Shown: positions 30,809 to 60,378 of the stretch, piece by piece | How the letters are laid out: each line of letters starts with the position of its first letter | Position numbering within the stretch: position 1 is the first letter of the stretch | Notes under the pieces: generated by a model | Told to the model about the DNA's origin: nothing | Database searches by the model: none | The model's input: only the letters and a program-made list of their open reading frames with translations | From: Candidatus Multivorans thiocomprendens | Lineage (GTDB): Bacteria; Acidobacteriota; Thermoanaerobaculia; Multivoradales; Multivoraceae | Length of the DNA: 64,000 bases | Assembly: GCA_027493375.1 (NCBI GenBank) | Contig: JAPVWO010000250.1 | Span: 1,743 to 65,742 of the forward strand | Reading direction: 5' to 3' | Made by a program: the position numbers and the translations under genes

Positions 30809-30816
30809 CGTGAACT

Positions 30817-33548: not shown

Positions 33549-33624
33549 CCCGGAGCATCCCGGAACAACACCCGACCCAGTACCGCACAGAACCGACACT
33601 TCCGTCAACCCGAGAGACATCACC

Positions 33625-36702: not shown

Positions 36703-36704
36703 CT

Positions 36705-37082: not shown

Positions 37083-38456
37083 ATGCGAACGACTCCCCCT
37101 ACCGGCATGATCTTCCATGGCTGGAAGATCATCTTCGTCTCCTTCCTGGCGTTGTTCGTCTCCGTCGGCTTCGGCTTCTACTCGTTCAGCGCCTTCTTCG
37201 TTGCCCTGACCTCCGAGTTCGGGGGCGGCCGGGTCGGCGTCGGCATCGGCGTCGCCATCTTCGGCGTGACGAACGGCTTGGTCGCGCCGTTCCTGGGTCA
37301 TGCCCTGGACCAGGGCCACGCGAAGCGGATCATGACGGCGGGCACCTGGCTGCTGGCGCTGGGCCTGCTCCTGACCGCGACGGTCCAGAATCTGATCCAG
37401 TTCTACCTCGTCCTCGGCACCTTCCTGGCCCTGGGAGCGGCGCTGATCGGTGGCGTGACCGCCTCCACCCTGGTCGCCAACTGGTACGTCCGCCAGCGCG
37501 CCATGGCTCTCGGCATCGCCACGATGGGCATCTCGCTCTCGGGCGTCGTCATGGCGCCCGTGGCGACACGGCTGATCGACCTGATCGGCTGGCGCGGTAC
37601 GTTCGTGCTCTACGGCGCGCTGACGCTGCTCTTCGTCCTTCCGGCCGTCCGGCGCTGGGTGATCGACCGCCCGGAGGACATCGGCCTTCACCCCGACGGG
37701 GCAGCGACCTCCCTGGCCGGCGAGTGGACCGCGGCGCCCGCGGCCGGGGAGGGACCGGTGGGCGTGGAACCGGTAACGCCCCTGCCCACGGCCGACGGCG
37801 CTCCGCCCAGGCGCCCACGGCTGGAGTGGACGCAGCCGCTGGCGAACCGCAACTTCTGGGTCATCGTCCTCGTCGTGTCGATGTGCTTTTGCGCCAACTC
37901 CGCCATCCTCGCGCACATCATCGCCCACGCGACGGACCTGGGCTTTCCGCCCGTCGACGCTGCCTTCTGCCTGTCCACGATCGCTGCCATGGGAGTACTG
38001 GGCAAGGTCGTGTTCGGCTGGATCAGCGACCGGCTCAGCAGTCGCGGCGCCGTGTGGCTGGCGGTCAGCCTGATGGGCGCCGGCGCCGGCGGTCTGCTGG
38101 GGGCCGAGAGCTATCCGGCGGTTCTCGGCGCCGTCGCCGTCTTCGGACTCGGCATGGGCGGCATCATGCCCTTGTGGGGAACGCTGATAGGGGCCTGCTT
38201 CGGCCGCCGCTCCTTTGGCCGGGTGATGGGCCTGATGAGTCCCATGCTGCTGCCGATCCAGGTACTCGGCGTCCCCTTCGCGGGCTACGTCTACGATCGT
38301 TTCCACAGCTACGACCTGGCCTTTACCACGTTCGTCGGCTTGTACGGCTTCTCCATAGTGACCCTCCTGCTTCTCCGAGTCCCCGCACGGGAGCCGAGCG
38401 GCTCCGCGGCTTCCCCCGCGGGGCCGACGACCGCGACGGTCACGCGGACGGAGTAA
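37083..38456 (+). CDS. MFS transporter (oxalate/formate antiporter-like)
   Basis: Start trimmed to the ATG at 37083. The N-terminus GWKIIFVSFLALFVSVGFGFYSFSAFFVAL is typical of OFA-type MFS proteins. There are 12 hydrophobic segments with a long central loop. Confidence 0.8.
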   Translation: MRTTPPTGMIFHGWKIIFVSFLALFVSVGFGFYSFSAFFVALTSEFGGGRVGVGIGVAIFGVTNGLVAPFLGHALDQGHAKRIMTAGTWLLALGLLLTATVQNLIQFYLVLGTFLALGAALIGGVTASTLVANWYVRQRAMALGIATMGISLSGVVMAPVATRLIDLIGWRGTFVLYGALTLLFVLPAVRRWVIDRPEDIGLHPDGAATSLAGEWTAAPAAGEGPVGVEPVTPLPTADGAPPRRPRLEWTQPLANRNFWVIVLVVSMCFCANSAILAHIIAHATDLGFPPVDAAFCLSTIAAMGVLGKVVFGWISDRLSSRGAVWLAVSLMGAGAGGLLGAESYPAVLGAVAVFGLGMGGIMPLWGTLIGACFGRRSFGRVMGLMSPMLLPIQVLGVPFAGYVYDRFHSYDLAFTTFVGLYGFSIVTLLLLRVPAREPSGSAASPAGPTTATVTRTE

Positions 38457-38460
38457 CCGG

Positions 38461-39372
38461 GTGACCGCCTACCGTTTCTGCCGTTCGGACGACGTGCCCC
38501 TCATCGTCGACGCGTACGAACGCTGCAACGTCGGCGCCGGCGCCCGGCCCTGGCGCCTGACGGTGGACCACATGAAGCGGCTGGGCCGGGAGATGAACCT
38601 CTGGACCAGCAGTTGCATGGTCGCCTTCGAGGGTTCCGACCCGATCGGCGTCCTCATCGCCGCCAAGCGGGAGCCGATCGCCAGCCTGGTGCTCCACGTC
38701 GCCGTCCACCCGGATCACCGCCGCCGGGGTCACGGCCGCCACATGATGACCTCGCTGAGCCAGAAGATGGCGATCCTCGAACCGACGCTGATGCTCGTCG
38801 AACTACCGGAAGGCGACGCCCTCGGCCGCCGCTTCTTCGAAGCCTGCGGATTCACAAGGCGGGACGTCCTGACCGATTACACCTGCGCGGGCGAGGCGCC
38901 GGCCGGCGGCGTCGACCCGGTCGGTGGCGTCGACCTGGTCGCCGATGTCGCCGCCGCCGAGCTTGTCTCGCAAGAGGACTTCGAGGCCGTCCCGGAGCTC
39001 GACCGCTGCTGGCAGCGCGCTCCTCTGAGCATCCGGAACCTCCGTGACCGGCCGCAAGGTCTTGCGATCGCCACCGATCGAGGCTTCGAGGCCTGGCTGC
39101 TCCACCGGGGCGACGGCGACGCGGAGACGCCCCTGCCCTTCCTGGCGGCCCCGCCGACGCGGTCACCGCTGGAGGTCCTCGCCCTCGGCGGCAAGATGCC
39201 CGTTCCCGCGCTCGTGCGCCCGCTGCTCGCCGTGGCGTCGGACCGCGCCGGGCGCTCGCTCCACCTGCCCCGGGTCCATCCGTCGGAGGTCCCCGCCGGC
39301 CGCCTCGAGGAGTACGGCTTCAGGCCCGGCTCCAGGACGATTCGCTACGAGAGCGACGCGGCTCCGGCTTGA
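38461..39372 (+). CDS. GNAT family N-acetyltransferase (two-lobed)
   Basis: LVLHVAVHPDHRRRGHGRHMMTSL matches the acetyl-CoA binding motif A (Q/R-x-x-G-x-G/A). GTG start. Confidence 0.6.
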   Translation: MTAYRFCRSDDVPLIVDAYERCNVGAGARPWRLTVDHMKRLGREMNLWTSSCMVAFEGSDPIGVLIAAKREPIASLVLHVAVHPDHRRRGHGRHMMTSLSQKMAILEPTLMLVELPEGDALGRRFFEACGFTRRDVLTDYTCAGEAPAGGVDPVGGVDLVADVAAAELVSQEDFEAVPELDRCWQRAPLSIRNLRDRPQGLAIATDRGFEAWLLHRGDGDAETPLPFLAAPPTRSPLEVLALGGKMPVPALVRPLLAVASDRAGRSLHLPRVHPSEVPAGRLEEYGFRPGSRTIRYESDAAPA

Positions 39373-39396
39373 GGACTTGGTACTCTCGCACCCGCG

Positions 39397-40275
39397 ATGA
39401 AGAGCTACTTCGACCTGATCGATGACGGCGGTTCCGACATCGCCGGCCAGGTCGGCCGGCAGCGGGAACGCATCGCCGAGGCCCTGACCGGCGTCGAACA
39501 CATCGTCGCCATCGGCTCCGGCAAGGGAGGCGTCGGCAAGAGCACCCTGACCATGCAACTGGCCCTGGCCATGGAGCGCCGCGGCCGCCGCTGCGCCGTG
39601 CTCGACGCCGATCTGAACGGCCCTTGCCAGGCGCGCCTCGCCGGCCTCGAGAACGCGGCCCTGCTTCCGGGCGGCCGCGGCATGGCGCTGCCGCGCACCG
39701 CGACCGGACTCGGCGTCGTATCGATGGGTTCCGCGGTGCCGGAATCGGAGGACCTGGACTTCGCCAGCGTTGCCCGCGGCGACTCCCATGTCTGGCGCGC
39801 CACCCGCGAGTTCAACCTGTTCCAACAACTGCTCGGTCTGGTCGACTGGGGACGTCTCGACGTTCTCCTGGTCGACCTGCCGCCCGGCGCCGAGCGCACG
39901 CTCCAGTACGCCGAGGTCCTGGGACCGGGGGCCCGTTTCGTCCTCGTCTCGATTCCGACCGCCCTGGCGCGAGGCGTCGTGGCGCGCTCGGCCGCCGCTC
40001 TGCGGCGAACCCGGAACGTGACGCTCGGCGTGATCGAGAACATGAGCGGCTACTACTGCGAAGGCTGCGACGATGTCCGGCCTCTGTTCGAGGGCTCGGA
40101 CGACACGGCCCCCGAGCTTGGACTCCCCGTACTCGCTTCGATACCGTTCGATCCGCGGCTGGCCGCGGCCTCCGACGCCGGCGACCCGGAGTTGCCGCGG
40201 GGGCCTGCCGTCCGCGCGATCGAGACCGCCGCCGACTCCATCCTGAGCGGCCTCGCCGAGCGGCGGGCCGGCTGA
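39397..40275 (+). CDS. Mrp/NBP35 (ApbC-like) P-loop ATPase, Fe-S cluster carrier family
   Basis: Deviant Walker A IGSGKGGVGKST, VLDADLNGP, LLVDLPPG and the CxxC pair NMSGYYCEGCDD are typical of the family. Confidence 0.85.
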   Translation: MKSYFDLIDDGGSDIAGQVGRQRERIAEALTGVEHIVAIGSGKGGVGKSTLTMQLALAMERRGRRCAVLDADLNGPCQARLAGLENAALLPGGRGMALPRTATGLGVVSMGSAVPESEDLDFASVARGDSHVWRATREFNLFQQLLGLVDWGRLDVLLVDLPPGAERTLQYAEVLGPGARFVLVSIPTALARGVVARSAAALRRTRNVTLGVIENMSGYYCEGCDDVRPLFEGSDDTAPELGLPVLASIPFDPRLAAASDAGDPELPRGPAVRAIETAADSILSGLAERRAG

Positions 40276-40287
40276 TCCGGAGACCCG

Positions 40288-40767
40288 ATGAAGTTCCTCT
40301 GCGTACCCTGCGACGAGCAGATGAAGCTCAAGCACGCGATCGGCCCCGAGGGCGGTTCGGTCGCCCTGGTCTACGCCTGTCCCGCCTGCTCGGCCGAGAT
40401 GGCGATGATGACGAACCCGCACGAAACCCAGGTCGTCGGCTCGCTCGGAGTGAAGATCGGCGCCGCGGAAGATCCCGAGGCGGCCGCGGCCGCCTCGAAA
40501 TGCCCGTTCACCGGCATGCTGGCCGACATGGGCGTTCCGGTGACCGGAACGCGCGCCGCGGAGAACGCCAACCCCGTCGCGAGCGGCAATGGCGGCCCCG
40601 GAGGCATTCCCTGGACGGCCGAGGCCCGCGAGCGGCTCGCCAACATCCCGGACATCGTCCGCGCCGCGGCTGTCGCGGGGATCGAGAAGTTCGCCGAGGA
40701 CCACGGCTACGAAGAAGTCAACGCGGCCGTCCTGGAACGCGCCCGCTCGTTCTTCGGGATCGCCTGA
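40288..40767 (+). CDS. Zinc-ribbon protein with a C-terminal PCP_red-like domain
   Basis: The N-terminus has CVPCD...CPACS. The C-terminus IPWTAEARERLANIPDIVRAAAVAGIEKFAEDHGYEEVNAAVLERA fits the BchB C-terminal pattern W..eAe..l..iP.fvR. Confidence 0.75.
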   Translation: MKFLCVPCDEQMKLKHAIGPEGGSVALVYACPACSAEMAMMTNPHETQVVGSLGVKIGAAEDPEAAAAASKCPFTGMLADMGVPVTGTRAAENANPVASGNGGPGGIPWTAEARERLANIPDIVRAAAVAGIEKFAEDHGYEEVNAAVLERARSFFGIA

Positions 40768-40783
40768 CCGCCTGGAGCCGGCG

Positions 40784-42154
40784 ATGACGGTGTCACCCCT
40801 GGAGCGGCAGGCGAGCGTGAACCCGACCGCCTTCGCGCGGCCGTACGTCATCTCCTGGAACCTGACCTACCGCTGCAACCTGGCCTGCGAGCACTGCTAC
40901 CTCGACGCCGGCGGCAAGCCTCTGGTCCAGACCGCGAACTTCGCCGACCGCTCGGAGCTCTCGACCGACCAGTGCCGCAAGGTGATCGACGACATCTGCG
41001 AGTTCGCCCCCGAAGCCCTGGTCATCCTCACCGGCGGCGAGCCGCTGCTGCGCCGAGACATCCTGGAGATCGTGCGCTACGCGGCAGAGCGCGACTTGTG
41101 GGTCGTCGTCGGCAGCAACGGCGTGCGCATCACCGAGAACCTGGCCCGGATTCTGGCCGGCGAGGGTGTCCGCGGTCTCGCCCTGTCGCTCGACGCCCTC
41201 GACGCCGAGGTCCACGACGGCTTCCGGCGGGTTCGCGGCGCCTGGCGGAACACGGTCGACGGCGCCGGGCACCTCGCCACGGCAGGGTTGCCCTTCATCA
41301 TCCAGACCACGGCCGGCGCCCACAACCGGGGTCAGCTCGAGGAGATCGCCGAGTTCGCCTACAGCGAACTCAAGGCACGGGTCTGGAACCTGTACTTCCT
41401 GGTTCCGACCGGCCGCGGCCAGTTCGTCTCGGACCTGTCGCCGTCCGACTACGACGAGGTGCTGGCCGCCCTCACGTCCATCCAGCGGAACTACCGCGGG
41501 CGCATGGTCGTCAACGCGAAGTGCGCGCCCCACTACGTCCGCCAACTACTCGCCGGAGACCAGGACTCGCCCTTCCTCAAGGCGTACGACGGCGGCGCCG
41601 GCGGCTGCCCGGCCGGAACCCACTACATGGGGATCCGACCCAACGGCGACGTCACGCCCTGCCCCTACCTGCCGGTGTTCGGCGGCAACCTGAAACGGTC
41701 GACGCTCTCGGATCTCTGGAACGACTCCGACCTCTTCCAGTCGATCCGGCGCCGCAACGATCTCGGCGGCCGCTGCGGCTCCTGCGAGTTGTCGACGGTC
41801 TGCGGCGGCTGCCGGGCCCGGGCCTTCGGGATGACGGGCGACCTGATGGCGGAGGATCCGCTCTGCACCCACGAGCCCGGCACCTTCACTGCCGACCGGC
41901 TCCAGGCGTTCGGCGACCGCACCGGGCTGGCCTCTCTCGCCCGCTACGGCGAAGACAGCTCGACCAGCATCGCCTGGGAACCCGAAGCCGAAGCCCGCAT
42001 GAAGCGGGTGCCGGCCTTCGTCCGCGGCATGGTCGTGCGCTCGGTCGAGTCCCACTGCCGCAAGAACGGGATTTCGACCGTGACCGTCGACGAACTCGAG
42101 TCGATCCGCGCCCGGATGCCGACGCCAAAGGTCTTCGGCAGCCGCCCTTCCTGA
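40784..42154 (+). CDS. Radical SAM/SPASM enzyme, NirJ/AhbC/AhbD-like, with a C-terminal PCP_red-like domain
   Basis: Start trimmed to the ATG at 40784. VISWNLTYRCNLACEHCY is the CxxxCxxC radical SAM cluster motif. LTGGEPLLRRD is present. The SPASM cysteines are CPAGTHYMGIRPNGDVTPCPY and GGRCGSCELSTVCGGCRARA. The tail reads IAWEPEAEARMKRVPAFVRGMVVRSVESHCRKNGISTVTVDELE. Confidence 0.85.
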   Translation: MTVSPLERQASVNPTAFARPYVISWNLTYRCNLACEHCYLDAGGKPLVQTANFADRSELSTDQCRKVIDDICEFAPEALVILTGGEPLLRRDILEIVRYAAERDLWVVVGSNGVRITENLARILAGEGVRGLALSLDALDAEVHDGFRRVRGAWRNTVDGAGHLATAGLPFIIQTTAGAHNRGQLEEIAEFAYSELKARVWNLYFLVPTGRGQFVSDLSPSDYDEVLAALTSIQRNYRGRMVVNAKCAPHYVRQLLAGDQDSPFLKAYDGGAGGCPAGTHYMGIRPNGDVTPCPYLPVFGGNLKRSTLSDLWNDSDLFQSIRRRNDLGGRCGSCELSTVCGGCRARAFGMTGDLMAEDPLCTHEPGTFTADRLQAFGDRTGLASLARYGEDSSTSIAWEPEAEARMKRVPAFVRGMVVRSVESHCRKNGISTVTVDELESIRARMPTPKVFGSRPS

Positions 42155-42182
42155 ACGGCGTAAGCAGCCCGGGTTAGAGGTC

Positions 42183-42839
42183 GTGGCCAGCAGCAGCAAC
42201 CCGCTGCCCCGCTCCTACGCCCACGTTCCGCGGACGATCCTCTGGCTCGTGCCGGGCGGCGAGGGCCTGATCGACGGACGAACGGTGACGGTCGAGCCCT
42301 TCTACCTCAGCAAGTGGCCGGTGACGAACGAGCAGTTCGAGGCCTTCGACCCGGACCACCGGCGATCCCCCCTCTCTTCCGGTGACCGGGACCTCGCCGT
42401 CGGCATCGGCTGGAACCAGGCCGACGCCTACTGCCGCTGGTACGCCGAGGTGTCCCGCAAGCCGATGCGGCTGCCGACCCGAACGGAGTGGCTCTACGCC
42501 TGCCGGGGCGTTTCGACCCCCGACGACCAGCCGTCCTGGACCGCCACCCCGGAGGCCATCGACCGCCACTGCTGGCACGCCGGCAACTCGGACGGCCGCG
42601 TGCAGCACCCTGAGCACCGGCAGGCCAACGACTTCGGCCTTCACGGGATGCTGGGAAGCGTCTGGGAGTGGGTCGCCGAGGAACCAGCCGGCGCCCCAGG
42701 CCAACGCACACTCTGCGGCGGCTCCTTCCGCCTCCCGCCACAAGAACTCAAGACCGCCCGGACAACGCACGAGGCACCCGGTTTCGCTTCCGACGAAACA
42801 GGCTTCCGGGTCGCCCGCTCCTTCCGCATCGACGACTGA
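42183..42839 (+). CDS. FGE-sulfatase (SUMF1/EgtB/PvdO) fold protein lacking the catalytic Cys pair
   Basis: FYLSKWPVTNEQFEAF, VGIGWNQADAYCRWY, RLPTRTEWLYACRG and GLHGMLGSVWEWV are present. The terminal segment CGGSFRLPPQELKTARTT has no C-x4-C active-site pair. Confidence 0.7.
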   Translation: MASSSNPLPRSYAHVPRTILWLVPGGEGLIDGRTVTVEPFYLSKWPVTNEQFEAFDPDHRRSPLSSGDRDLAVGIGWNQADAYCRWYAEVSRKPMRLPTRTEWLYACRGVSTPDDQPSWTATPEAIDRHCWHAGNSDGRVQHPEHRQANDFGLHGMLGSVWEWVAEEPAGAPGQRTLCGGSFRLPPQELKTARTTHEAPGFASDETGFRVARSFRIDD

Positions 42840-52515: not shown

Positions 52516-53010
52516 TCAGCCTGCCGCCAGGCGGGCATAGCGGCCGCCGTGGAACAGCAGCGGCTCCGCGTCGCGCAGCCGTTCGCCGGCGACGACATCG
52601 CCGATCACGATGATGTGATCGCCTCCGTCGATCCGATCCGCGATCCGGCATTCCAGGTGGACCAGCGCGTTCTCGATCAGGGGCTCGCCCAGGCTGCCCT
52701 GCCGGAACGCGACGCCCAGCAGCGAGCCCGTAGCCGGCGCGGTCGTGCGCGCGAAGGTGTTCGAGATCTCCTCCTGGTCGGACGCCAGGATGCTGAGGCC
52801 GAAAGCTCCCGCCCGCAGCATCTGCCGGTAGCAGTTCGACTCCCGGTCGACGCAGACGAGGAGCTGCAGCGGTTCGAGCGAGAGCGAGCAGACGGCGTTC
52901 GCCGTCATTCCATGGAGCCGGCCGTCCACGTTCGTCGTCACCACCGTGACGCCCGTCGCGAACTGGCCGATCAGGCCGCGGTAGGTATCGCGGTCCAGCT
53001 CAGAAGGCAT
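52516..53010 (-). CDS. Flavin reductase family protein (FMN-binding split barrel)
   Basis: YRGLIGQFATGVTVVTT...HGMTANAVCSLSLEPLQLLVCVD. I prefer the ATG at 53010; the GTG at 53025 is the alternative. Either start overlaps the 3' end of the upstream protease gene. Confidence 0.8.
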   Translation of the reverse strand: MPSELDRDTYRGLIGQFATGVTVVTTNVDGRLHGMTANAVCSLSLEPLQLLVCVDRESNCYRQMLRAGAFGLSILASDQEEISNTFARTTAPATGSLLGVAFRQGSLGEPLIENALVHLECRIADRIDGGDHIIVIGDVVAGERLRDAEPLLFHGGRYARLAAG

Positions 53011-56000
53011 CGATGTCGATCTCACCGCAGATGCTCCCCGCCTCGTTCCGGTAGATCGCTACGCTATCGGCCAGCGTGTCGCTCACCGTGATCGTGTACT
53101 CCACGTCCGAGAGGCCGCCGTAGAGGAACCAGAAGCTGCCGTTCACTCCGCGGCCGTCCAGCATCTTCACCGCCAGTTCGACGTTCGAGGGGCTGAAGAA
53201 CCAGTAGAAGCCCGTCTTCCCCGTCGTCAGCGACGGGATCACGCTGGCGGTCCGTGGCACGTCCGCATCCACGTTCGGGTCGATGAAGTCGACTTCGACC
53301 GCGAACCGGTCGTCGAGCAGGCACAGCCGCTCGTCACTGGCCTCGCATCGACCCGAACGGTCACTTGCGAGTTCGATACCGCCAGGATCGAGGGACGCCA
53401 CGTCCATCCGCAGGAGGTCGAATCCCGGGCGGCCCGCACCGGTGCCGGGGGCGCGGGACGGACCCGTCGCGGCCGCCGTATCGATGAAGGCCAGAAGGTC
53501 CTTCTGACCGCAGACGTCCTTCGGCGAGTTGTGGTACGTCCGCCGCTCGCCGGTTTCCGCGTCTCTCACGGTGATCCAGTACTCGACGTCGGACAGCGCG
53601 CCGAAGAAAACCCAGTAGCTGCCGTTGATGGCCGTCCCGTCGAGGACCTTGACGACGAGTTCGATGTTCTCGGACTCGAAGAACCAGAACAGCCCGGACT
53701 CGTCCGAGATGTCCACAGCCACGGCCGTGCCCGCGCCGAACTCGTCCAGCACGTCCGGCCTGCTCCAGTGCGCCCGCGCCTCGAAGCGTCCGTCGCGAAG
53801 GCAGAGAAAGCCGGCCCCTTCCCGACAGGCGCCCCGGAAGGCGCCGGTCGTGACGCTGGCCTCCGGAGAGTAGTCCGCGGCCCCGGACCGGAGCCGGAAC
53901 GTGTAGGGAGTCTCCGCCTCGAGACCCGCGATCATGGTCCCTCCTGTCGTAGCCTGGGCCGTGCCAACCTCCATCCATCCGCTCGCCGGGTTCCGCGCCT
54001 CGACCGCCAGCGGTCCCCGCGCCGCCCGCGTCCACCCGCCGGTCCAGGTCAGTTCGACCGAGGTCTCGCCCGACGGAACGACCATCAGCCCGCCATCCTC
54101 CTCCTCGGGCGGGTCGCCGCTCGGCGCCGGCATTCCCCTGACCGTGTTGCTGGCGCGCGAGTAGCCGGCGTCGCTGTAGGCGAAGACGCGGTAGTCGAGG
54201 GCTTCGCTCCGGGCCAACTCAAACGAAGTGGCGCCAGCCGGGACCAGAGCAACCCGCGTCCAACGGCCGCCACCCACCACGGTGGTGTCCTGCCGGTCGT
54301 ACTCGGGCCGCAACTGGACCTCGAAACCCGTCTCTCCGCGCGAGTTGTCTCTCCAGGTCAACCTGGCCACGCCGCCGTCCACGCCCCAGTTGAGCCTGGT
54401 CGGCGCCGCCGGACCGCGGCCCGCCTCGCCCAGTCCCAACCTCGCGTAGCTGCGTTCGCCAACGCCCGCGTCGTTGTACGGCAGGACGAAGAAGAGGTAG
54501 CCGCCGCCGCGGGCCAGCCCCTCGATCTCGATCGCCTCGCTGTTGGCATCGGTCTCGAACAGGCCGAACCAGCCCGAGACGAGCGCCAGGACCCGGAAGC
54601 CCAGTTCGTCGGACGAATTGTCGCGCCACGTCAGACGAACGGACGTATCGCCCGTCACCCTGGCGGTCAGGTCGGAGACAGCCCTGGGCCCCGGCATGGG
54701 CGGCGATTCCAGGACGAGGAGGCTGCTGGCAGAGGTCCCGGCGATGCCATGCGCGTACACCCGAACGCTGTAGGAGATGTCCGGGAAGAGGCTTGTCAGG
54801 AGCGTCGATTCGCTGTTCGCCGAGACCCACTTCCGCCGCTGCAGCACTCCCCGGTACAGGAGCTGAACCTCGAAGAGACTCTCGTTGTCCGAGTTGTCGA
54901 CCCAGCTCACACGCGCCGAGTTCGTCCCGGCGCGGATGGGATCCTCCTCCACGACCGTGCGCCAGGCGAGTCCCGAAGGCGGGGCCGGCGCCGCGCCCGG
55001 AACGACCAGCGTGACCGTGCTGCTTCTCGCCGAGTAGGTGCTCTCCCCCCTGACCGCCCTGACGAAGAAGAAGTAGCGCGTGCCCGGGTCGGCCACCGGA
55101 AGATCGAGGGTCGCCGACCTCCGCTCCTCGAACCGTCGCGTCGGCAGGTTTCCCGTTCGACCGCGCTGCCAGTACGTTGCTTCGTAGCCATCCGCGTCGG
55201 GCGCGTTGTCCTGCCAGAGCAGCCGCACCGAGATGTCGCCGGCCATCCGGACCACCAGGTCCGTCGGCGCCGCGGGAGCGTCCTCCGGCAAGGCGTCGAC
55301 GAAGTCGCCGTAGCGGACGCCGAGGTGGATGCTGTCCCGCAGAGCGCGCTCGTTCTCCCGTTCGTTCGCGATGCCGATCACCCGGCCCTGCGGCTTGACG
55401 CGTACGCTCGACAGGTACGGTTCGCCCTGGCCGGTGTAACTCATGATCGTCCCGACGTTCGGGATGCGATCGAGATTGCCGTGCCCGAAGGCGTACGGCC
55501 TGAAGGCAAACTGGGGAGAACCGCCGTTCTCCGGGTCGTGGTGGGCGCCCAGGCCGTGGCCGACTTCGTGGGCGAAGATCGGCCCATCGTCCGAACAGGC
55601 GCTGGAGGTCCAACCGTAGGCGTACTCCGAGAACTCCTCCGCGCCGTCCGCCCGTGCCAAAAGGTAGTGCTGGCCGCACGCGCCTCCAAGCGCCCACGGC
55701 GACTCCCCGGTGAAGAGATGAACCAGATCGGCGCCGTGTTCACGCCGCAGCCGCAGCACCTCCCCGTCCCACCGCAATTGCGTGATGATCGAGGCGCCGT
55801 ACAGACCGGTGCCGTCTCTGCCGACACGGTCCAGGCCCGAGAGCTGCGCCATGTGGACGATTCTCGCGCTCACCCCGATGTTGCCGTTCCGCAGGACCAT
55901 GTTCAGGTAGTCCCCGGCACTCCGAATCGCCGCTCGGGCGCCTCCCCGATCCGCCCAGGTCGAAGCCGCCGCCCTCGTGTAGACGACCAGGATGTCGAGC

Positions 56001-56602
56001 TGTTCGTGGTTCCGTGGCGCAGCCACTCGCGCCGGCAGATCGACGGCCATCGCTTCGGCCGGAAGGCGTGCCTGCTCCCGCAATCGCGGATCGGAATCGC
56101 TGCCCACCGGGCAGAAAGCCTCGGGCTCGCGCCCGGGCAGGCCGAAGCTCGAAGCCATCTCACCGCCACCGTCGGGCCGGGCGCTGATCCGATATCGGAC
56201 ACCGCCGGGCTCACCGAACCAGCCGACCAGACGGCCACCCTCGACGGTCAGGACGACGCTGTCATGACCCGCACCCGAAAGACCGCCCGACCACATCAGG
56301 TCGCCGCCGCCCCGATCCTCGAAGACGCCGAGTTCCGCCTCCAGCACCAAGCCATTCGGCGTCGGCAGCTCCAGCCGGACCGGCTCCGTGCGAAGCAGCT
56401 CCATGTCGACCTGGACGGCGATGGAGGAAATCTCCGGCGCGAAGTCCTGGACGGAGACCGTTGCCGGCTGGGTCGCCTGCGGAATCAGCGTCAGCAGGCG
56501 CTGACCCTGAAGCGGCGCAGCGAGCAAGAGGAGCGCCGCGGCGGCAAGGACTCCACCAATCCGGCTTCCGTCGCACTCCAGTCTGGACAGGACTGACCGC
56601 AA
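53000..56602 (-). CDS. Secreted metzincin (reprolysin/M12B-like) metalloprotease with five FN3-like modules and a duplicated C-terminal domain of unknown function
   Basis: Signal peptide present. HEVGHGLGAHHD (HExxHxxGxxH) and Met-turn TIMSY are present. There are five repeats of the pattern VRLxWxDNSxxExGF. Two paralogous C-terminal modules of about 110 aa follow (LCLxDxRF...FWFF..N.EL.VK.LDG...NGS.W...G.LSDVEY.ITV.D). Confidence 0.75.
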   Translation of the reverse strand: MRSVLSRLECDGSRIGGVLAAAALLLLAAPLQGQRLLTLIPQATQPATVSVQDFAPEISSIAVQVDMELLRTEPVRLELPTPNGLVLEAELGVFEDRGGGDLMWSGGLSGAGHDSVVLTVEGGRLVGWFGEPGGVRYRISARPDGGGEMASSFGLPGREPEAFCPVGSDSDPRLREQARLPAEAMAVDLPARVAAPRNHEQLDILVVYTRAAASTWADRGGARAAIRSAGDYLNMVLRNGNIGVSARIVHMAQLSGLDRVGRDGTGLYGASIITQLRWDGEVLRLRREHGADLVHLFTGESPWALGGACGQHYLLARADGAEEFSEYAYGWTSSACSDDGPIFAHEVGHGLGAHHDPENGGSPQFAFRPYAFGHGNLDRIPNVGTIMSYTGQGEPYLSSVRVKPQGRVIGIANERENERALRDSIHLGVRYGDFVDALPEDAPAAPTDLVVRMAGDISVRLLWQDNAPDADGYEATYWQRGRTGNLPTRRFEERRSATLDLPVADPGTRYFFFVRAVRGESTYSARSSTVTLVVPGAAPAPPSGLAWRTVVEEDPIRAGTNSARVSWVDNSDNESLFEVQLLYRGVLQRRKWVSANSESTLLTSLFPDISYSVRVYAHGIAGTSASSLLVLESPPMPGPRAVSDLTARVTGDTSVRLTWRDNSSDELGFRVLALVSGWFGLFETDANSEAIEIEGLARGGGYLFFVLPYNDAGVGERSYARLGLGEAGRGPAAPTRLNWGVDGGVARLTWRDNSRGETGFEVQLRPEYDRQDTTVVGGGRWTRVALVPAGATSFELARSEALDYRVFAYSDAGYSRASNTVRGMPAPSGDPPEEEDGGLMVVPSGETSVELTWTGGWTRAARGPLAVEARNPASGWMEVGTAQATTGGTMIAGLEAETPYTFRLRSGAADYSPEASVTTGAFRGACREGAGFLCLRDGRFEARAHWSRPDVLDEFGAGTAVAVDISDESGLFWFFESENIELVVKVLDGTAINGSYWVFFGALSDVEYWITVRDAETGERRTYHNSPKDVCGQKDLLAFIDTAAATGPSRAPGTGAGRPGFDLLRMDVASLDPGGIELASDRSGRCEASDERLCLLDDRFAVEVDFIDPNVDADVPRTASVIPSLTTGKTGFYWFFSPSNVELAVKMLDGRGVNGSFWFLYGGLSDVEYTITVSDTLADSVAIYRNEAGSICGEIDIDAF

Positions 56603-56643: not shown

Positions 56644-58404
56644 GTGCAATACAGGTCTATCTCACCATGCAAGAAGCCCGCCGTCGATCTCCTTCGGTTT
56701 CGGGGGCCGACCATCGTCCCCGTGCTGGTCGCGGCAATCGCCCTGGCGCTCTCCGGTTGCCGCGGTATCGACGCCCCGCCCCGGCCCGACATCGTCCTCA
56801 TCATGGCGGACGACATGGGCTTCTCCGACCTGGGCAGCTACGGCGGCGAGATCGGAACTCCGCACCTCGATCGCCTGGCCGCCAACGGCCTGCGCTTCAG
56901 CCACTTCTACAACACGGCCCGCTGCTGCCCGACCCGCGCGTCCCTGCTGACCGGCCTGTATGCGCACCAGGCCGGCGTCGGCCACATGATGGGCGACGAC
57001 GGGCTGCCCGGATACCGCGGCGATCTCGCCGCCAACGCGGTGACGATCGCCGAGGCGCTCAGGGAGGCCGGCTACGGCACCTACATGTCGGGGAAGTGGC
57101 ACGTCACGCGCCACGTGGGCCACTGGAGCGGCAACGACGAACTCACCTCGACCCGCAACTGGCCGCGGCAACGCGGCTTCGACCGCTTCTACGGCACGAT
57201 CCACGGTGCCGGCAGCTTCTACGACCCGATCTCCCTCACCGAGGACAACGAACCCGTCGAACTCACGCCGCCTGACGACCCGGCGGCCCCCGTCTACTAC
57301 TACACGGACGCAATCTCCGAGTACGCGGCGCGCTTCGTGCGTGACCACGCGGAGGGAGAACGCAGCGACGATCCGTTCTTCCTCTACGTGGCCCACACCG
57401 CGCCCCACTGGCCGCTGCACGCGCTGCCGGAGGACATCGCCCGCTACCGGGGCCGCTACGCCGCCGGCTGGGACGCGATCCGGGCCGAGCGCCGGCAGCG
57501 GCTGATCGAACTCGGGCTGATCGACGCCGCCTGGCCGCTTACCGAGCGCGACCCGCGCGTACCCGCCTGGGCGGATGTTCCCGGCGAGGAACGGCCCTGG
57601 TTCGAGCGCGCGATGGAGGTCTATGCCGCCCAGGTCGACCGCATGGATCGGGGCATTGGCGAGGTCGTCGCGGCGCTGGAGGAGACCGGCCGTCTCGACA
57701 ACACGCTGATCCTGTTCCTGGCCGACAACGGCGGTTGCGCCGAGGTTCTGACGGAACGGTGGACCGGCCTCGCGATCCCGCGTCAAGCCCTCGACGGCAG
57801 CCCGGTGGCGGTCGGCAACGACCTGAGCGTGCTGCCCGGACCGGAGTCGAGCTACCAGAGCTACGGCCCCCACTGGGCCCACGCCAGCAACACCCCGTTC
57901 CGCCTCTACAAGCACTGGGTCCACGAAGGGGGCATCGCTTCCCCGCTGATCGTCCACTGGCCGGCCCGGATCGCCGACGGCGGCGACATCGTGCGCGAAA
58001 CCGCCCACGTCATCGACCTGATGGCGACGGCGCTCGACGCCGCCGGCGCCGTCCACCCCGCGAGTCGCGCCGGCAGCGTCTCGATCCCGGTCGAGGGCGT
58101 AAGCCTGCTGCCGGCGTTCGAGGCGCGTCCGCTCGACCGCGAGGCGGTGTTCTGGGAGCACGAAGGCAACCGGGCGGTCCGCTCCGGCAAGTGGAAGCTG
58201 GTGTCCCGATACCCCGGCGAGTGGGAGCTCTACGACGTGCTCGCCGACCGCACGGAAGCCAACGATCTGGCGCTGGTGGAACCGGAACGGGTCGCCGCGC
58301 TCGCCGCGCTCTGGAACGACTGGGCCGCTCGCACCGGCGTGGTCCCCTGGGACGAGATTCGTGAGCGCCGGCAGGTCGCCCGCGTGTTACGCTCCGGGCC
58401 ATGA
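56644..58404 (+). CDS. Arylsulfatase (Cys-type, formylglycine-dependent), lipoprotein
   Basis: IVLIMADDMGFSDLGSYGG and the CCPTRASLLTG (C-x-P-x-R) motif are present. Lipobox ALALSGC. The ORF has no ATG upstream of the signal peptide, so I chose the GTG at 56644. Confidence 0.85.
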   Translation: MQYRSISPCKKPAVDLLRFRGPTIVPVLVAAIALALSGCRGIDAPPRPDIVLIMADDMGFSDLGSYGGEIGTPHLDRLAANGLRFSHFYNTARCCPTRASLLTGLYAHQAGVGHMMGDDGLPGYRGDLAANAVTIAEALREAGYGTYMSGKWHVTRHVGHWSGNDELTSTRNWPRQRGFDRFYGTIHGAGSFYDPISLTEDNEPVELTPPDDPAAPVYYYTDAISEYAARFVRDHAEGERSDDPFFLYVAHTAPHWPLHALPEDIARYRGRYAAGWDAIRAERRQRLIELGLIDAAWPLTERDPRVPAWADVPGEERPWFERAMEVYAAQVDRMDRGIGEVVAALEETGRLDNTLILFLADNGGCAEVLTERWTGLAIPRQALDGSPVAVGNDLSVLPGPESSYQSYGPHWAHASNTPFRLYKHWVHEGGIASPLIVHWPARIADGGDIVRETAHVIDLMATALDAAGAVHPASRAGSVSIPVEGVSLLPAFEARPLDREAVFWEHEGNRAVRSGKWKLVSRYPGEWELYDVLADRTEANDLALVEPERVAALAALWNDWAARTGVVPWDEIRERRQVARVLRSGP

Positions 58405-59021
58405 AGAAGAGAGCTTTCCTGGCTGGCGCGGCCCTGGTTTGCGCCTCTCCCGCGCTGGCTGCCGACGTGCCGACAACCGCGGAGGAAGTCCGGCCGCTTC
58501 TGGTCGGCAGCGCCGTTCCCGAAGTCGAACTTCCCGCCGCCGACGGCGGCGTCGTCGACCTGGCCGCCGCGGCCAGGGCCCAGCCGACGATTCTCATCTT
58601 CTACCGCGGCGGCTGGTGACCGTACTGCAACACGCAACTGGGTCAGTTGCAGGAGATAGAGCAGGATCTGATCAACCTCGGCTACCAGTTGTTCGCGGTG
58701 TCGCCGGACATCGTCGCGCAACTGCACGCCACCGTCGACAAGAACGAGCTGAACTACCGGCTCCTCTCGGACCGGGGCATGGCGGCCTCGCAGGCCTTCG
58801 GCATCGCCTTCCGCGACGAGGAGATGGTGCGGACCTACCGGGAGAGCTATCAGCTCGACCTGGAGGAGTACGCCGGGGACGATCACCACATGCTGCCGGT
58901 GCCCGCGGTCTTCGTACTCGACACGGACGGCCGGGTCGCCTTCCACTACGTGAACCCGGACTACAGGGTCCGTCTCCCGGAGACGGTTCTGCTCGAGGCC
59001 GCGAAGGCGGCCCTCAAGTAG
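58401..59021 (+). CDS. Peroxiredoxin-like (AhpC/TSA, PRX_like) thiol-disulfide oxidoreductase, predicted selenoprotein; TGA at 58617-58619 read as Sec
   Basis: ORFs 58401-58619 and 58647-59021 are in the same frame and are separated only by one TGA. The joined translation gives FYRGGW-U-PYCN, where homologues have FYRGxWCPxC. There is a signal peptide. A hairpin lies downstream of the TGA. Confidence 0.7.
58625..58652 (+). other. SECIS-like stem-loop downstream of the in-frame TGA
   Basis: ctgcaac (58625-58631) pairs with gttgcag (58646-58652). An alternative tighter hairpin pairs gcaac (58634-58638) with gttgc (58646-58650) around the loop tgggtca, starting 14 nt after the TGA. That loop contains GGGU. 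Confidence 0.45.
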
Positions 59022-59064: not shown

Positions 59065-60378
59065 GTGGATTCGAACCGACAGGCGCTGGCGCGCAACGAT
59101 CCCGCGGTCTGGGCCGCGATAGCCGGCGAGGAGGAGCGCGAGCGGCGCGGCGTCGAGCTCATCCCCTCCGAGAACTACACGTATCCCGAGGTGTTCGCGG
59201 CGAACGGCTCGGTGCTGACGAACAAGTACGCGGAGGGCTATCCCGGCCGCAGGTACTACGGCGGCCAGGAGTTCACGGACGCGGTCGAGCGGCTGGCGAT
59301 CGAGCGCGCTCGCAGGGTGTTCCGGGCCGAGCACGCGAACGTTCAGGCGCTCTCCGGCTCGCCGATGAACCAGGCCGTCTACTTCGCCTTCCTGGATCCG
59401 GGCGACACCGTGCTGGCGATGGACCTGTCGCACGGCGGGCACCTCACCCACGGCGCGCCCGTCTCCCACATGGGCCGGGTTTTCAACTTCATCCGCTACC
59501 GGACCGACCCGGCCAACGAGGGCGCGATCGACTTCGACGCCCTGCTCGCCCAGGCCCGCGAGCACCGGCCGAAGATGATCCTCTGCGGCTACTCGTCCTA
59601 CCCGCGGGACTACGACTACCGCGAGTTCAAGCGGGTCGCCGACGACGTGGGGGCGCTGACGATGGCCGACGTCTCCCACATCGGCGGCCTGATCGCCGGC
59701 AACGCGATGGCCAACCCGCTCGACCACGGCTTCGACGTGATGACGACGACCGGTCACAAGACCCTGCGCGGGCCTCGCAGCGGCCTCATCCTCTGCCGCG
59801 CGGAACACCGCCTGAAGATCGACAAGGCGGTCTTCCCGGGCCTTCAGGGCGGCCCCCACATGAACGCCATCGCCGCCTTGGCCATCACCCTCGGCAAGGC
59901 GCTCGAACCCGAGTTCGCCGTCTACGCGCGGCAGGTCCTTTCGAACGCGAAGGTGCTGGCGGACGAGCTGATGAGCCGCGGCGCCGAACTGGTCACCGGC
60001 GGCACCGAGAACCACATGATGGTGCTGGACACGCGGGAGAGCTTCGGTATCGACGGCCGGGTCGCCGAAGAGACGCTGGACAAGGTCTCGATCACGGTCA
60101 ACAAGCAGTTGATCCCAGACGATCCGCTGCCGCCTCTGCGACCCAGCGGCATCCGCCTCGGCAGCCCTGCCGCCACCACCCGCGGCATGGAAGAGGCGGA
60201 AATGAAGCTGCTCGCCGAGTGGATCATGGACGCGCTGCGGCGCCACCGCGACGAGGAGCGGCTCGACGCCATGCGCCAGGACATCGAGCGCTTCTGCCTG
60301 CGCTTTCCCGTGCCCGGCGTGACCCCGCCGGACGCCGGCGCCGCCAGCCCCCGACGATCAAGCGCCGCCAGACCCTGA
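59065..60378 (+). CDS. glyA: Serine hydroxymethyltransferase
   Basis: ELIPSENYT, TNKYAEGYPGRRYYGG, SHGGHLTHG and TTTGHKTLRGPRSG (PLP lysine) are present. GTG start. Confidence 0.95.
   Translation: MDSNRQALARNDPAVWAAIAGEEERERRGVELIPSENYTYPEVFAANGSVLTNKYAEGYPGRRYYGGQEFTDAVERLAIERARRVFRAEHANVQALSGSPMNQAVYFAFLDPGDTVLAMDLSHGGHLTHGAPVSHMGRVFNFIRYRTDPANEGAIDFDALLAQAREHRPKMILCGYSSYPRDYDYREFKRVADDVGALTMADVSHIGGLIAGNAMANPLDHGFDVMTTTGHKTLRGPRSGLILCRAEHRLKIDKAVFPGLQGGPHMNAIAALAITLGKALEPEFAVYARQVLSNAKVLADELMSRGAELVTGGTENHMMVLDTRESFGIDGRVAEETLDKVSITVNKQLIPDDPLPPLRPSGIRLGSPAATTRGMEEAEMKLLAEWIMDALRRHRDEERLDAMRQDIERFCLRFPVPGVTPPDAGAASPRRSSAARP

What the first reader, a model, noticed from the sequence alone, without database searches (positions are those of the whole stretch)
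58401..59021. Predicted selenocysteine-containing peroxiredoxin-like protein, split into two ORFs by an in-frame TGA
**What the sequence shows**
- The 72-aa ORF (58401-58619) and the 124-aa ORF (58647-59021) are in the same frame.
- Only the TGA at 58617-58619 separates them.
- Read through, the product is a 206-aa signal-peptide-bearing AhpC/TSA (PRX_like) protein.
- The TGA falls exactly at the first redox cysteine of the conserved FYRGxW-C-PxC motif, giving GGW-U-PYCN.

**Supporting evidence**
- A stem-loop begins 6-14 nt downstream (ctgcaac...gttgcag, or gcaac-tgggtca-gttgc with a G-rich apical loop). This is where a bacterial SECIS would be expected.
- UxxC thioredoxin-fold and Prx-like selenoproteins are a known class in marine bacteria. 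They are routinely mis-annotated as two fragments or as a pseudogene.
Basis: partly seen in the sequence, partly recalled or inferred. Interest (0 to 1): 0.7.

Follow-up and report, generated by a model that had tools for sequence, protein, structure and literature searches.

The report
Selenocysteine peroxiredoxin-like gene split by TGA
The two small ORFs are almost certainly one gene for an exported peroxiredoxin-like redox protein whose in-frame TGA encodes selenocysteine; this is a well-known kind of selenoprotein that annotation pipelines routinely cut in two, so it is real but ordinary.

Summary
Window 58401-59021 (+) is one reading frame with a single TGA (58617-58619). Read through, it gives a 206-aa AhpC/TSA-fold protein.

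The TGA lies on the first Cys of an invariant FYRGGW-C-P[YF]-C motif. It is TGA in the window plus 40 related genome loci and TGT/TGC in 39 others. It is never TAA or TAG.

A 7-bp hairpin with a GGU loop (58634-58650) starts 14 nt after the TGA. It meets all four published bacterial SECIS criteria. It pairs perfectly in every Sec form, with compensatory changes in 5 of 7 pairs. Cys forms do not have it, even those encoding the same peptide.

Both halves are under purifying selection (dN/dS 0.24 and 0.14). Independent long-read and short-read assemblies carry the same TGA.

The family, Prx-like thiol:disulfide oxidoreductase with a UxxC motif (PF00578), is an established selenoprotein family. 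It is not a canonical peroxiredoxin: the catalytic Thr and Arg are replaced.

Main gap: I could not reach selA, selB, selD or tRNA-Sec in the window's own clade (sponge/coral-associated Thermoanaerobaculia, Acidobacteriota). I found them only in other lineages, including an Acidobacteriota contig where they flank a related W-U-PYC gene.

Verdict: a new member of a known kind, of modest interest.

The parts
58401..59021 (+). Complete read-through coding sequence: 206 codons (Sec at codon 73) plus the TAG stop. It encodes a Prx-like UxxC thiol:disulfide oxidoreductase.
   Evidence: Single frame with one internal TGA. Pfam AhpC-TSA E = 4.8e-26. Full-length Cys homologs are 50-58% identical over 83-100% of the length. 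dN/dS is 0.24 upstream and 0.14 downstream of the TGA, with no other stops in 34 clade sequences.
58401..58460 (+). Predicted Sec-type signal peptide (MKKRAFLAGAALVCASPALA, cleavage after A-L-A), implying an exported or periplasmic protein.
   Evidence: Inferred from the sequence. Homologs all have hydrophobic N-termini. The AF2 model of homolog P0006 has an N-terminal helix detached from the fold at low pLDDT. No signal-peptide predictor was run.
58617..58619 (+). In-frame UGA read as selenocysteine (residue 73). It is the first residue of the U-P-Y-C redox motif (58617-58628).
   Evidence: TGA in the window plus 40 related genome loci and TGT/TGC in 39 homologs at the same codon; never TAA or TAG. 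It aligns with the invariant first Cys. In the AF2 model of a Cys homolog this Cys sits directly before the helix that follows the beta-strand, which is the Trx-type nucleophile position.
58634..58650 (+). Bacterial SECIS-like hairpin inside the coding sequence: 5' arm GCAACUG (58634-58640), loop GGU (58641-58643), 3' arm CAGUUGC (58644-58650). There are 21 nt between the UGA and the loop.
   Evidence: 7 of 7 pairs in all 41 Sec forms, with 4 stem versions among genome loci. Cys forms average 4.1 of 7. Covariation: 5 of 7 pairs changed on both sides, 0 of 500 shuffles reach it, slid controls 8-43% paired. RNAalifold recovers it. It meets the bSECIS model of PMC13188914.
56644..58404 (+). Upstream sulfatase gene. 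Its TGA stop overlaps the Prx-like ATG (ATGA at 58401-58404). It is context, not an obligate partner.
   Evidence: Pfam Sulfatase E = 2.2e-58. The start is taken from public gene calls on near-identical contigs (586 aa). The gene is absent or degraded in about 9 of 35 clade loci that still keep the TGA gene.
59065..60378 (+). Downstream serine hydroxymethyltransferase gene, the conserved 3' neighbour (context).
   Evidence: Pfam SHMT E = 5.9e-141. The order Prx-like, SHMT, enoyl-CoA hydratase, ATG22-type MFS is conserved wherever the locus extends that far, in 34 of 35 clade loci (L011 is only 3 kb).

Best explanation
This is one gene for an exported, Prx-fold, UxxC-type thiol:disulfide oxidoreductase that contains selenocysteine.

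Proposed recoding step (inferred). During translation, the UGA at 58617-58619 is not read as stop. The 7-bp/GGU hairpin, whose loop lies 21 nt downstream, acts as a bacterial SECIS. It recruits SelB-GTP-Sec-tRNA(Sec) to the ribosome, and Sec is inserted at residue 73.

Proposed chemistry (inferred). After export, Sec73 is the attacking nucleophile of a U-P-Y-C redox centre at the N-terminus of the first helix of the thioredoxin-like core. It reacts with a substrate disulfide, or possibly a peroxide. It then forms a selenenylsulfide with Cys76, which an unknown periplasmic reductant resolves.

Shown here: the gene structure, the Sec/Cys homolog pairing, the conserved and covarying hairpin, purifying selection on both halves, and the fold.

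Inferred, not shown: actual Sec insertion, the SelB interaction, export, substrate and reductant.
For: 1. Sec/Cys pairing. The window plus 40 loci from different genomes have TGA where 39 homologs have TGT/TGC, in an invariant FYRGGW-C-P[YF]-C motif. The interrupting codon is always TGA.
2. Conservation. The TGA is kept throughout a clade of 35 other genomes at 78-97% protein identity and in more distant Acidobacteriota and Eisenbacteria (52-57%). In every clade locus but one (L017) the frame stays open for exactly 133 codons downstream. dN/dS is 0.24 upstream and 0.14 downstream.
3. SECIS. The hairpin is 7 of 7 paired in all Sec forms, with compensatory changes. The paired codons co-change when the peptide changes (QLGQL, QLGEL, ELGQL). 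The loop is always GGY. Cys forms average 4.1 of 7 pairs, including ones encoding the identical QLGQLQ peptide.
4. Wider set. Across 133 unique W-U-PYC sequences, 72% carry a hairpin that complies with the bSECIS model. The figure is 8% for Cys forms and 7% for codon-shuffled controls.
5. Not an error. The same TGA appears on 8 contigs from independent assemblies, including an 82x long-read contig.
6. Known family. Prx-like (PF00578, UxxC) is an established selenoprotein family (PMC2398784, PMC13188914, PMC1794560).
7. Physical linkage elsewhere. In locus L182 (Acidobacteriota; SelA 97% identical to a 'Ca. Acidiferrales' SelA), a W-U-PYCK Prx-like gene lies next to tRNA-Sec, selD, selA and selB.
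8. Fold. The AF2 model of a 58%-identical Cys homolog (pLDDT 89) matches BCP/PrxQ/AhpE structures.
Against: - No selA, selB, selD or tRNA-Sec was found in the 64-kb window.
- None could be assigned to the window's own clade. Every sel-gene contig I reached has a tetranucleotide correlation to the window of 0.943 or less, against 0.989-0.996 for clade loci.
- No Rfam model matches the hairpin.
- The isolated hairpin is only -7.4 kcal/mol (-8.9 with dangles), close to the model's -7.5 cutoff.
- With this genome's codon usage, the peptide TQLGQLQ would form the 7-bp stem by chance in about 14% of synonymous encodings. So the hairpin in any single genome is weak evidence; the case rests on the comparative data.
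- No expression or proteomic data are available.
Confidence: 0.88

Rival explanations
1. The UGA is recoded, but not as selenocysteine. It could be read as Cys through a tRNA(Sec)-like tRNA(Cys) (selC*-type) system. It could also be read by near-cognate Trp/Cys read-through stimulated by the downstream hairpin. Either route would give a CxxC or WxxC protein.
For: Sec machinery was not demonstrated in the clade. tRNA(Sec)-like Cys tRNAs that may act as opal suppressors, and unusual suppressor-type allo-tRNAs in Acidobacteria, have been described (PMC5389517).
Against: - In that paper selC* genes were reported from Firmicutes, Thermodesulfobacteria, Nitrospirae and Proteobacteria, not Acidobacteria.
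- The hairpin fits the SelB-type bSECIS model in spacing and in its G[G|U]N loop.
- A related W-U-PYC gene is physically linked to a canonical tRNA-Sec (anticodon TCA) with selD, selA and selB in an acidobacterial contig.
- If Cys were the product, a one-base change to TGY would be simpler, and 39 other lineages use exactly that.
Confidence: 0.05
2. The TGA is a true stop. The locus encodes a 72-aa secreted peptide and, separately, a 124-aa C-terminal fragment started at TTG 58647, as public annotations show.
For: Gene callers on all public assemblies output exactly these two ORFs. Both pieces are under purifying selection, which two independent genes would also show.
Against: - The split falls inside the CxxC active site of a single thioredoxin-like fold. 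Neither piece could fold alone.
- The nine codons between the TGA and the TTG (PYCNTQLGQ) are as conserved as the rest and contain the invariant second Cys.
- The stop is never TAA or TAG in 41 sequences.
- This reading does not explain the conserved, covarying hairpin.
Confidence: 0.03
3. The gene is a pseudogene inactivated by a nonsense mutation.
For: A premature stop inside a conserved domain is the usual signature of a pseudogene. Two clade MAG loci (L033, L034) have a disrupted upstream part.
Against: - The same TGA is retained across genomes with dS of about 0.4, and in lineages only 52-57% identical.
- There are no further stops or frameshifts in 133 downstream codons in 34 genomes, and dN/dS is 0.14. 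A decaying pseudogene would not show this.
Confidence: 0.02
4. The TGA is a sequencing or assembly error for TGC/TGT.
For: None, beyond the general possibility of a single-base error.
Against: An identical 60-mer around the TGA occurs in a long-read contig at 82x, in an NCBI MAG and in two Logan short-read assemblies from different runs. The TGA is also present in 40 other genome loci from many projects.
Confidence: 0.01

Closest known systems
Prx-like thiol:disulfide oxidoreductase selenoproteins ('Prx-like 1', PF00578, UxxC), described from Geobacter and Deltaproteobacteria genomes and from the Sargasso Sea and GOS metagenomes (PMC1088965, PMC2398784, PMC1794560, PMC13188914)
   Same: - PF00578 domain.
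- Sec as the first residue of a UxxC motif, aligned with Cys in far more numerous Cys homologs.
- A SECIS hairpin immediately downstream inside the coding sequence.
- Typically mis-annotated as fragments.
   Different: - I could not compare directly with published member sequences such as WP_010940744.1, so assignment to the same subfamily rests on domain, motif and description.
- The host here is a sponge/coral-associated Thermoanaerobaculia (Acidobacteriota) clade, and the protein carries a signal peptide.
- The 2006 survey found only 4 selenoproteins in 3 families in Acidobacteria.
BCP / PrxQ / AhpE peroxiredoxins (for example PDB 2cx3, 3hjp, 5epf, 1xvw)
   Same: - Same fold: Foldseek E = 4e-11, with TM-score up to 0.88 on the target, for the model of a 58%-identical homolog.
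- The second Cys (C76) aligns with the peroxidatic Cys.
   Different: - The PxxxT/SxxC motif is not kept: the Pro is Arg69 and the Thr/Ser is Sec73.
- The catalytic Arg is replaced by the invariant Pro168.
- The score against the NCBIfam BCP equivalog is 55.6 bits, against a cutoff of 140.
- There is a family-specific insertion with invariant D153, E155 and H162-H163.
- It therefore has the CxxC/UxxC geometry of thioredoxins and is probably not a canonical peroxidase.
Bacterial SECIS consensus model (bSECISearch; Zhang and Gladyshev, as summarised in PMC13188914), with the E. coli fdhF SECIS as prototype
   Same: - The hairpin lies in the coding sequence just 3' of the UGA.
[quoted passage not shown]
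   Different: - It is a minimal form: a perfect 7-bp stem with a triloop, no bulged U and no conserved lower stem.
- Its stability is near the model's threshold.
- No Rfam family covers it.
- Binding to SelB is untested.
SelL and SelL-related redox proteins (NCBIfam NF040769)
   Same: Prx-like fold with a Trx-like dicysteine or diselenide motif. There is a weak hit, E = 9.2e-11.
   Different: The score of 41.7 bits is far below the 120-bit cutoff. SelL has UxxU, and it was described from aquatic eukaryotes (PMC2398784).

Membership tests
Bacterial selenoprotein gene (UGA recoded as Sec) | An in-frame UGA that aligns with a conserved, redox-active Cys in homologs (a Sec/Cys pair) | tested here: met
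   TGA in the window plus 40 loci, against TGT/TGC in 39 loci at the same codon. It aligns with the invariant first Cys of FYRGGW-C-P[YF]-C.
Bacterial selenoprotein gene (UGA recoded as Sec) | The UGA is conserved in orthologs from other organisms, with coding constraint on both sides | tested here: met
   35 clade genomes plus 5 more distant genomes keep the TGA. dN/dS is 0.24 upstream and 0.14 downstream, with no other stops.
Bacterial selenoprotein gene (UGA recoded as Sec) | [quoted passage not shown] | tested here: met
   Loop GGU, stem 7 bp, spacing 21 nt, -8.9 kcal/mol with dangles and -7.4 in isolation. Covariation in 5 of 7 pairs, with 0 of 500 shuffles as good. Absent from Cys forms.
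Bacterial selenoprotein gene (UGA recoded as Sec) | selA, selB, selD and tRNA-Sec present in the same genome | not testable with these tools
   None in the window. Only the window and 20-kb loci of the clade's genomes were accessible. The sel clusters I found (L182, L201, L210, L211, L202-L205) belong to other lineages by tetranucleotide signature.
Bacterial selenoprotein gene (UGA recoded as Sec) | Selenium demonstrated in the protein (75Se labelling or mass spectrometry) | not testable with these tools
   This needs an experiment.
Prx-like thiol:disulfide oxidoreductase selenoprotein family (Prx-like 1) | PF00578 (AhpC/TSA) domain | tested here: met
   E = 4.8e-26, 91.6 bits against a cutoff of 26.
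Prx-like thiol:disulfide oxidoreductase selenoprotein family (Prx-like 1) | UxxC redox motif with Sec as the first residue | tested here: met
   U73-P-Y-C76. This is the motif listed for the family in PMC2398784 Table 2 and in PMC13188914.
Prx-like thiol:disulfide oxidoreductase selenoprotein family (Prx-like 1) | Sequence clustering with published members (for example WP_010940744.1) | not tested
Canonical peroxiredoxin (BCP/PrxQ type) | Prx/thioredoxin-like fold | tested here: met
   AF2 model of the 58%-identical homolog P0006, pLDDT 89. The top Foldseek hits are Bcp4, PrxQ, BcpB and AhpE.
Canonical peroxiredoxin (BCP/PrxQ type) | The PxxxT/SxxC active-site motif and the catalytic Arg | tested here: not met
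   The alignment to 2cx3 and 2ywn shows Pro replaced by Arg69, Thr/Ser by Sec73 and Arg by Pro168. Only the Cys (C76) is kept. Pro168 is invariant.
Canonical peroxiredoxin (BCP/PrxQ type) | Score above the NCBIfam equivalog cutoff (NF006960, thioredoxin-dependent thiol peroxidase) | tested here: not met
   55.6 bits against a cutoff of 140.

The most novel reading that the evidence does not exclude
The most novel reading my evidence leaves open concerns how this host-associated Thermoanaerobaculia clade decodes the UGA. It might do so without a canonical selA/selB/selC/selD set, for example with a divergent or relocated machinery or a tRNA(Sec)-like suppressor. Alternatively, the minimal 7-bp/GGU-triloop element shared by hundreds of W-U-PYC genes might define a distinct SECIS class with its own mode of SelB recognition. 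I could not inspect the clade's genomes for the machinery, so neither possibility is excluded.
Probability: 0.06. Interest if true: 0.6.

Novelty: new member of a known kind. Interest (0 to 1): 0.3.

Why it matters
- Annotation: every public assembly of this clade that I examined annotates the gene as a 72-aa plus a 124-aa fragment. Merging them restores a conserved exported redox enzyme and flags these sponge/coral symbionts as probable selenium users.
- Method: the locus shows cleanly that Sec/Cys pairing combined with a Cys-form negative control for the hairpin can validate a SECIS without a covariance model.
- Biology: a conserved periplasmic selenoprotein in a host-associated Acidobacteriota clade hints at a selenium requirement in the symbiosis. 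The family and the recoding mechanism are already well described, so it does not open a new question.

Tried and rejected
1. Rfam. The gathering-threshold scan of the whole window and the permissive scan of 58560-58720 gave only chance miRNA/snoRNA hits. Rfam has no model for this SECIS.
2. Single-sequence folding. The 76-nt region is no more stable than shuffles (z = 0.33), so thermodynamics alone is uninformative. The comparative data decide.
3. Outer hairpin.
4. Functional coupling to the upstream sulfatase (ATGA overlap). The sulfatase is absent or degraded in about 9 of 35 clade loci that keep the TGA gene, so it is not obligate.
5. Other selenoprotein genes in the window. A screen for TGA codons with coding composition on both sides gave only this gene plus two antisense artefacts. 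The same-frame neighbours at 38362-40767 are three separate genes.
6. Sec machinery.
   - ARAGORN found no tRNA-Sec in the window or in the clade loci.
   - Pfam annotation of 40 window ORFs found no sel genes.
   - tblastn used E. coli SelA, SelB and SelD sequences recalled from memory. These queries were validated by their strong hits in L182. They found nothing in the window or in the clade loci.
   - I then used L182 SelA and a GC-rich SelA representative as queries, cluster look-ups and contig look-ups.
   - Every sel contig retrieved failed the tetranucleotide test against the window.
7. My first hairpin scan used an isolated-hairpin energy cutoff that wrongly excluded the window's own hairpin. 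I redid it with dangles and several cutoffs.
8. Rare-codon argument. CAA, TTG and GGT are rare in this genome (7%, 5% and 9.5%). But the peptide would still form the stem in about 14% of synonymous encodings, so I do not treat it as strong evidence.
9. Literature searches for Sec use in Thermoanaerobaculia or 'Ca. Multivorans' returned nothing.
I modelled a 58%-identical Cys homolog instead.
Full report
**1. Observation**

Window 58401-59021 on the + strand is a single reading frame. It holds a 72-aa ORF (58401-58619) and a 124-aa ORF (58647-59021), interrupted only by the TGA at 58617-58619 and ending in TAG.

The read-through product is 206 aa. It matches Pfam AhpC-TSA (E = 4.8e-26) and Redoxin (E = 3.8e-18). 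The local peptide is ...TILIFYRGGW*PYCNTQLGQLQ....

The window has about 68% GC. In such DNA the coding frame shows in third-position GC. A screen for TGA codons with coding-type composition on both sides finds only three in 64 kb. The other two are antisense shadows of ordinary genes.

**2. Homologs and the Sec/Cys pair**

A search of about 5.8 billion proteins returned two kinds of hit.
- The closest relatives (81-95% identity) are all 124-aa fragments covering only the C-terminal 60% of the query. Many come from 4-5-Mb contigs.
- Full-length homologs (200-250 aa) are 48-60% identical.

A scan of species-representative genomes gave 80 loci. L001-L035 form one clade of Acidobacteriota MAGs. 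Their labels include Thermoanaerobaculia, 'Ca. Multivorans', 'Holophagales' and 'Vicinamibacteraceae'. Judging by isolate names, many are from sponge and coral projects.

At the codon in question, the window and 40 loci have TGA: the whole clade, four more distant Acidobacteriota at 52-57% identity, and one Ca. Eisenbacteria. Another 39 loci have TGT or TGC, and one locus lacked the motif. No locus has TAA or TAG.

The alignment with 11 full-length homologs puts the TGA on the first Cys of an invariant FYRGGW-C-P[YF]-C motif. This is the classic Sec/Cys-pair criterion used to identify selenoproteins (PMC13188914).

**3. Selection and sequencing error**

Within the clade, the 44 codons before the TGA have dN/dS 0.24 and the 133 codons after it have 0.14. 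Variation is concentrated at third positions, and there are no other stops in 34 sequences. In every clade locus but one (L017), the downstream frame runs exactly 133 codons to a stop. That excludes a decaying pseudogene.

The window's exact 124-aa fragment lies on 8 contigs from independent assemblies.
- A 2.42-Mb long-read contig named ..._82x.
- An NCBI MAG.
- Two Logan assemblies of different runs, one of them 100% identical to the window over 10.6 kb.

All carry the identical 60-mer around the TGA, and all are annotated as 72 aa plus 124 aa. That excludes a sequencing error.

**4. The SECIS**

The sequence 14 nt after the TGA is GCAACUG-GGU-CAGUUGC (58634-58650).

*Sec forms.* All 41 Sec forms (13 distinct sequences) form 7 of 7 pairs at this register. 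There are four different stem sequences:
- GCAACUG/CAGUUGC
- GCAGUUG/CAACUGC
- UCAGCUC/GAGCUGA
- GGAGCUG/CAGCUCC

The loop is always GGU or GGC.

*Cys forms.* The 38 distinct Cys-form sequences average 4.1 of 7 pairs, and only one reaches 7 of 7. Cys forms that encode the very same QLGQLQ peptide do not form the stem.

*Formal counts.* On 14 distinct sequences, 100% of cells are paired and 5 of 7 pairs have changes on both sides. No shuffle out of 500 is as good, and partner-slid controls give 8-43% paired. RNAalifold recovers the same helix.

[quoted passage not shown] Here the values are GGU, 7 bp, 21 nt and -8.9 kcal/mol with dangles, or -7.4 for the bare hairpin.

*Caveats.*
- Single-sequence folding is not significant.
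- Rfam has no model for the element.
- The peptide TQLGQLQ would give the stem in about 14% of synonymous encodings under this genome's codon usage.

The evidence is therefore comparative and does not come from thermodynamics.

**5. Breadth**

The QLG[QE]L and QLV[QE]L subgroups keep the same-register hairpin with many further stem versions and loops GGN or GUN. That is the published G[G|U]N pattern. Other subgroups use shifted registers.

With a register-free implementation of the model, 72% of 133 unique Sec sequences have a compliant hairpin at the -7.5 cutoff. The figure is 8% for Cys forms and 7% for codon-shuffled controls. At -6.0 the figures are 91%, 11% and 13%.

**6. What the protein is**

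The AF2 model of the 58%-identical Cys homolog P0006 is confident (pLDDT 89). Its best structural matches are BCP, PrxQ and AhpE peroxiredoxins. The window protein itself could not be submitted.

Sequence alignment to BCP structures shows which active-site residues survive.
- C76 corresponds to the peroxidatic Cys.
- The Pro of the Prx motif is Arg69.
- The Thr/Ser of the motif is Sec73.
- The catalytic Arg is the invariant Pro168.

No NCBIfam model reaches its cutoff. The first Cys, which corresponds to Sec73, sits immediately before the helix that follows the central strand, as in thioredoxin CxxC centres.

This matches the literature's 'Prx-like thiol:disulfide oxidoreductase' selenoprotein family (PF00578, UxxC).
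- GOS: 225 Sec forms and 2,740 Cys homologs (PMC2398784).
- The family is listed as 'predicted with high confidence' in a 2026 review (PMC13188914).
- It is present in Geobacter and other Deltaproteobacteria (PMC1794560).

The N-terminus looks like a Sec-type signal peptide. That is an inference.

**7. Genomic context**

The gene's ATG overlaps the TGA stop of an upstream sulfatase gene (ATGA). It is followed by genes for SHMT, an enoyl-CoA hydratase and an ATG22-type MFS transporter.

The downstream order is conserved in 34 of 35 clade loci; the exception, L011, is only 3 kb long. The sulfatase is missing or degraded in about nine of them, so I do not infer a functional link to it.

**8. Sec machinery: the gap**

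The window has no tRNA genes and no selA, selB or selD among 40 annotated ORFs. None of the clade's 20-kb loci has them either. This is expected for about 1% of a 5-Mb genome and is not evidence of absence.

Among the metagenome loci, L182 carries a related W-U-PYCK Prx-like gene. It lies divergently adjacent to tRNA-Sec (anticodon TCA), selD, selA and selB. Its SelA is 97% identical to one annotated from 'Ca. Acidiferrales bacterium', an Acidobacteriota lineage.

Further clusters turned up as follows.
- tRNA-Sec-selD-selA-selB clusters on L201, L210 and L211. L210 also has an adjacent formate-dehydrogenase gene split at the usual Sec position.
- selA with selB on L202 and L203, and selA alone on L204 and L205.

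A tetranucleotide test places all of them outside the window's clade. Clade loci correlate at 0.989-0.996 with the non-overlapping 48 kb of the window, while the sel loci reach at most 0.943.

With the genome and metagenome scans and the three large protein searches spent, the machinery of the window's own lineage remains untested. This is the main reason confidence is 0.88 rather than higher.

**9. Verdict**

The locus is a genuine, conserved selenoprotein gene that public annotations split into two ORFs.

It is a new member (new host lineage, exported form) of a selenoprotein family known for two decades, decoded by what looks like a standard if minimal bacterial SECIS. It deserves an annotation fix and a note on selenium use by these symbionts, but it is not surprising to a specialist. 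Interest is 0.3.

Noticed in passing
window 33235-42151 (+): A run of same-strand genes in which the small PCP_red domain (PF08369, C-terminal domain of the protochlorophyllide reductase 57-kD subunit) occurs three times. It is fused to tandem Usp domains (33235-35781), stands alone in a small ORF (40276-40764), and sits at the C-terminus of a radical-SAM/SPASM protein (40544-42151). An MFS transporter, a GNAT and a NUBPL/ParA-type Fe-S P-loop NTPase lie in between. An FGE-sulfatase-domain protein follows at 42084-42836. The function is unclear.
   Followed up: no
window 22996-31746: A respiratory gene cluster: SCO1/SenC (22996-23661, -), a cytochrome c7-like protein (23655-24407), a 1101-aa protein with molybdopterin-binding and 4Fe-4S domains (24386-27688), a 665-aa membrane protein with only a partial cytochrome bd subunit I match (28329-30323), and a c-type cytochrome (30877-31743). 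It resembles an alternative complex III type locus. I recall that resemblance from memory and did not test it.
   Followed up: no
window 53000-56602 (-): A 1200-aa predicted secreted protein with an M12B/reprolysin-like metalloprotease region and fibronectin type III repeats. It is conserved immediately upstream of the sulfatase/Prx-like genes in most clade genomes at 66-91% identity.
   Followed up: partly
window 11986-13972 (-): A partner-switching module: STAS anti-anti-sigma (13607-13972), response-regulator-SpoIIE/PP2C phosphatase (12402-13574) and HATPase_c_2 anti-sigma kinase (11986-12456), downstream of a HAMP/HisKA sensor kinase (8592-10763).
   Followed up: no
L182 1148-7481 (metagenome contig Ga0307374_10020214): A W-U-PYCK Prx-like selenoprotein gene with a long C-terminal extension lies on the - strand (TGA at 1747). 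It is divergently adjacent to tRNA-Sec (2760-2854), selD (2975-3973), selA (about 4054-5439) and selB (5421-7481). So a selenoprotein gene is physically linked to the complete Sec machinery in an Acidobacteriota ('Ca. Acidiferrales'-like) contig.
   Followed up: partly
L201 8811-13275; L210 8681-13351; L211 8826-13193: The same tRNA-Sec-selD-selA-selB gene order recurs on three large contigs of a single ENA assembly series. In L210 a divergent formate-dehydrogenase-like operon is annotated as 200-aa (Molybdop_Fe4S4) and 671-aa (Molybdopterin) pieces. That is the usual appearance of a Sec-containing FdhA split at its UGA. In L210 and L211 the selA gene itself is frameshifted, a long-read artefact.
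   Followed up: partly
L081-L200 (metagenome loci): Other subfamilies of G-W-U-PYCN genes use hairpins in a different register. Downstream peptides include LELEALE, LELRSLQL and LQLRAYQ. One example is AGCUGC-GGUCAUU-GCAGCU. About 9% of the sequences have no model-compliant hairpin even at a relaxed cutoff. A few pattern hits look like chance matches and not genes (for example L129, L136, L159).
   Followed up: partly
window 58635-58649: The SECIS stem in the window's clade is built from codons that are rare in this genome: CAA (7% of Gln) and TTG (5% of Leu), paired with each other, plus GGT (9.5% of Gly) in the loop. The common-codon version (CAG/CTG/GGC) would also pair. This suggests selection for a weaker A-U pair and a U in the loop, but I have no explanation for it.
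   Followed up: partly
L033 and L034 (clade MAG loci): In these two MAGs the part of the gene upstream of the TGA is truncated or frameshifted (12 open codons in L033; a non-multiple-of-3 match in L034). These are probably assembly problems and not gene loss.
   Followed up: no
L205 (JAJDCP010000177.1, GCA_029260765.1): This selA-bearing contig comes from the same accession series, and so probably the same project, as four clade MAGs (JAJDUI, JAJDZH, JAJEBV, JAJEHN). By tetranucleotide signature (r = 0.886) it belongs to a different organism. Other members of the same community therefore use Sec.
   Followed up: partly
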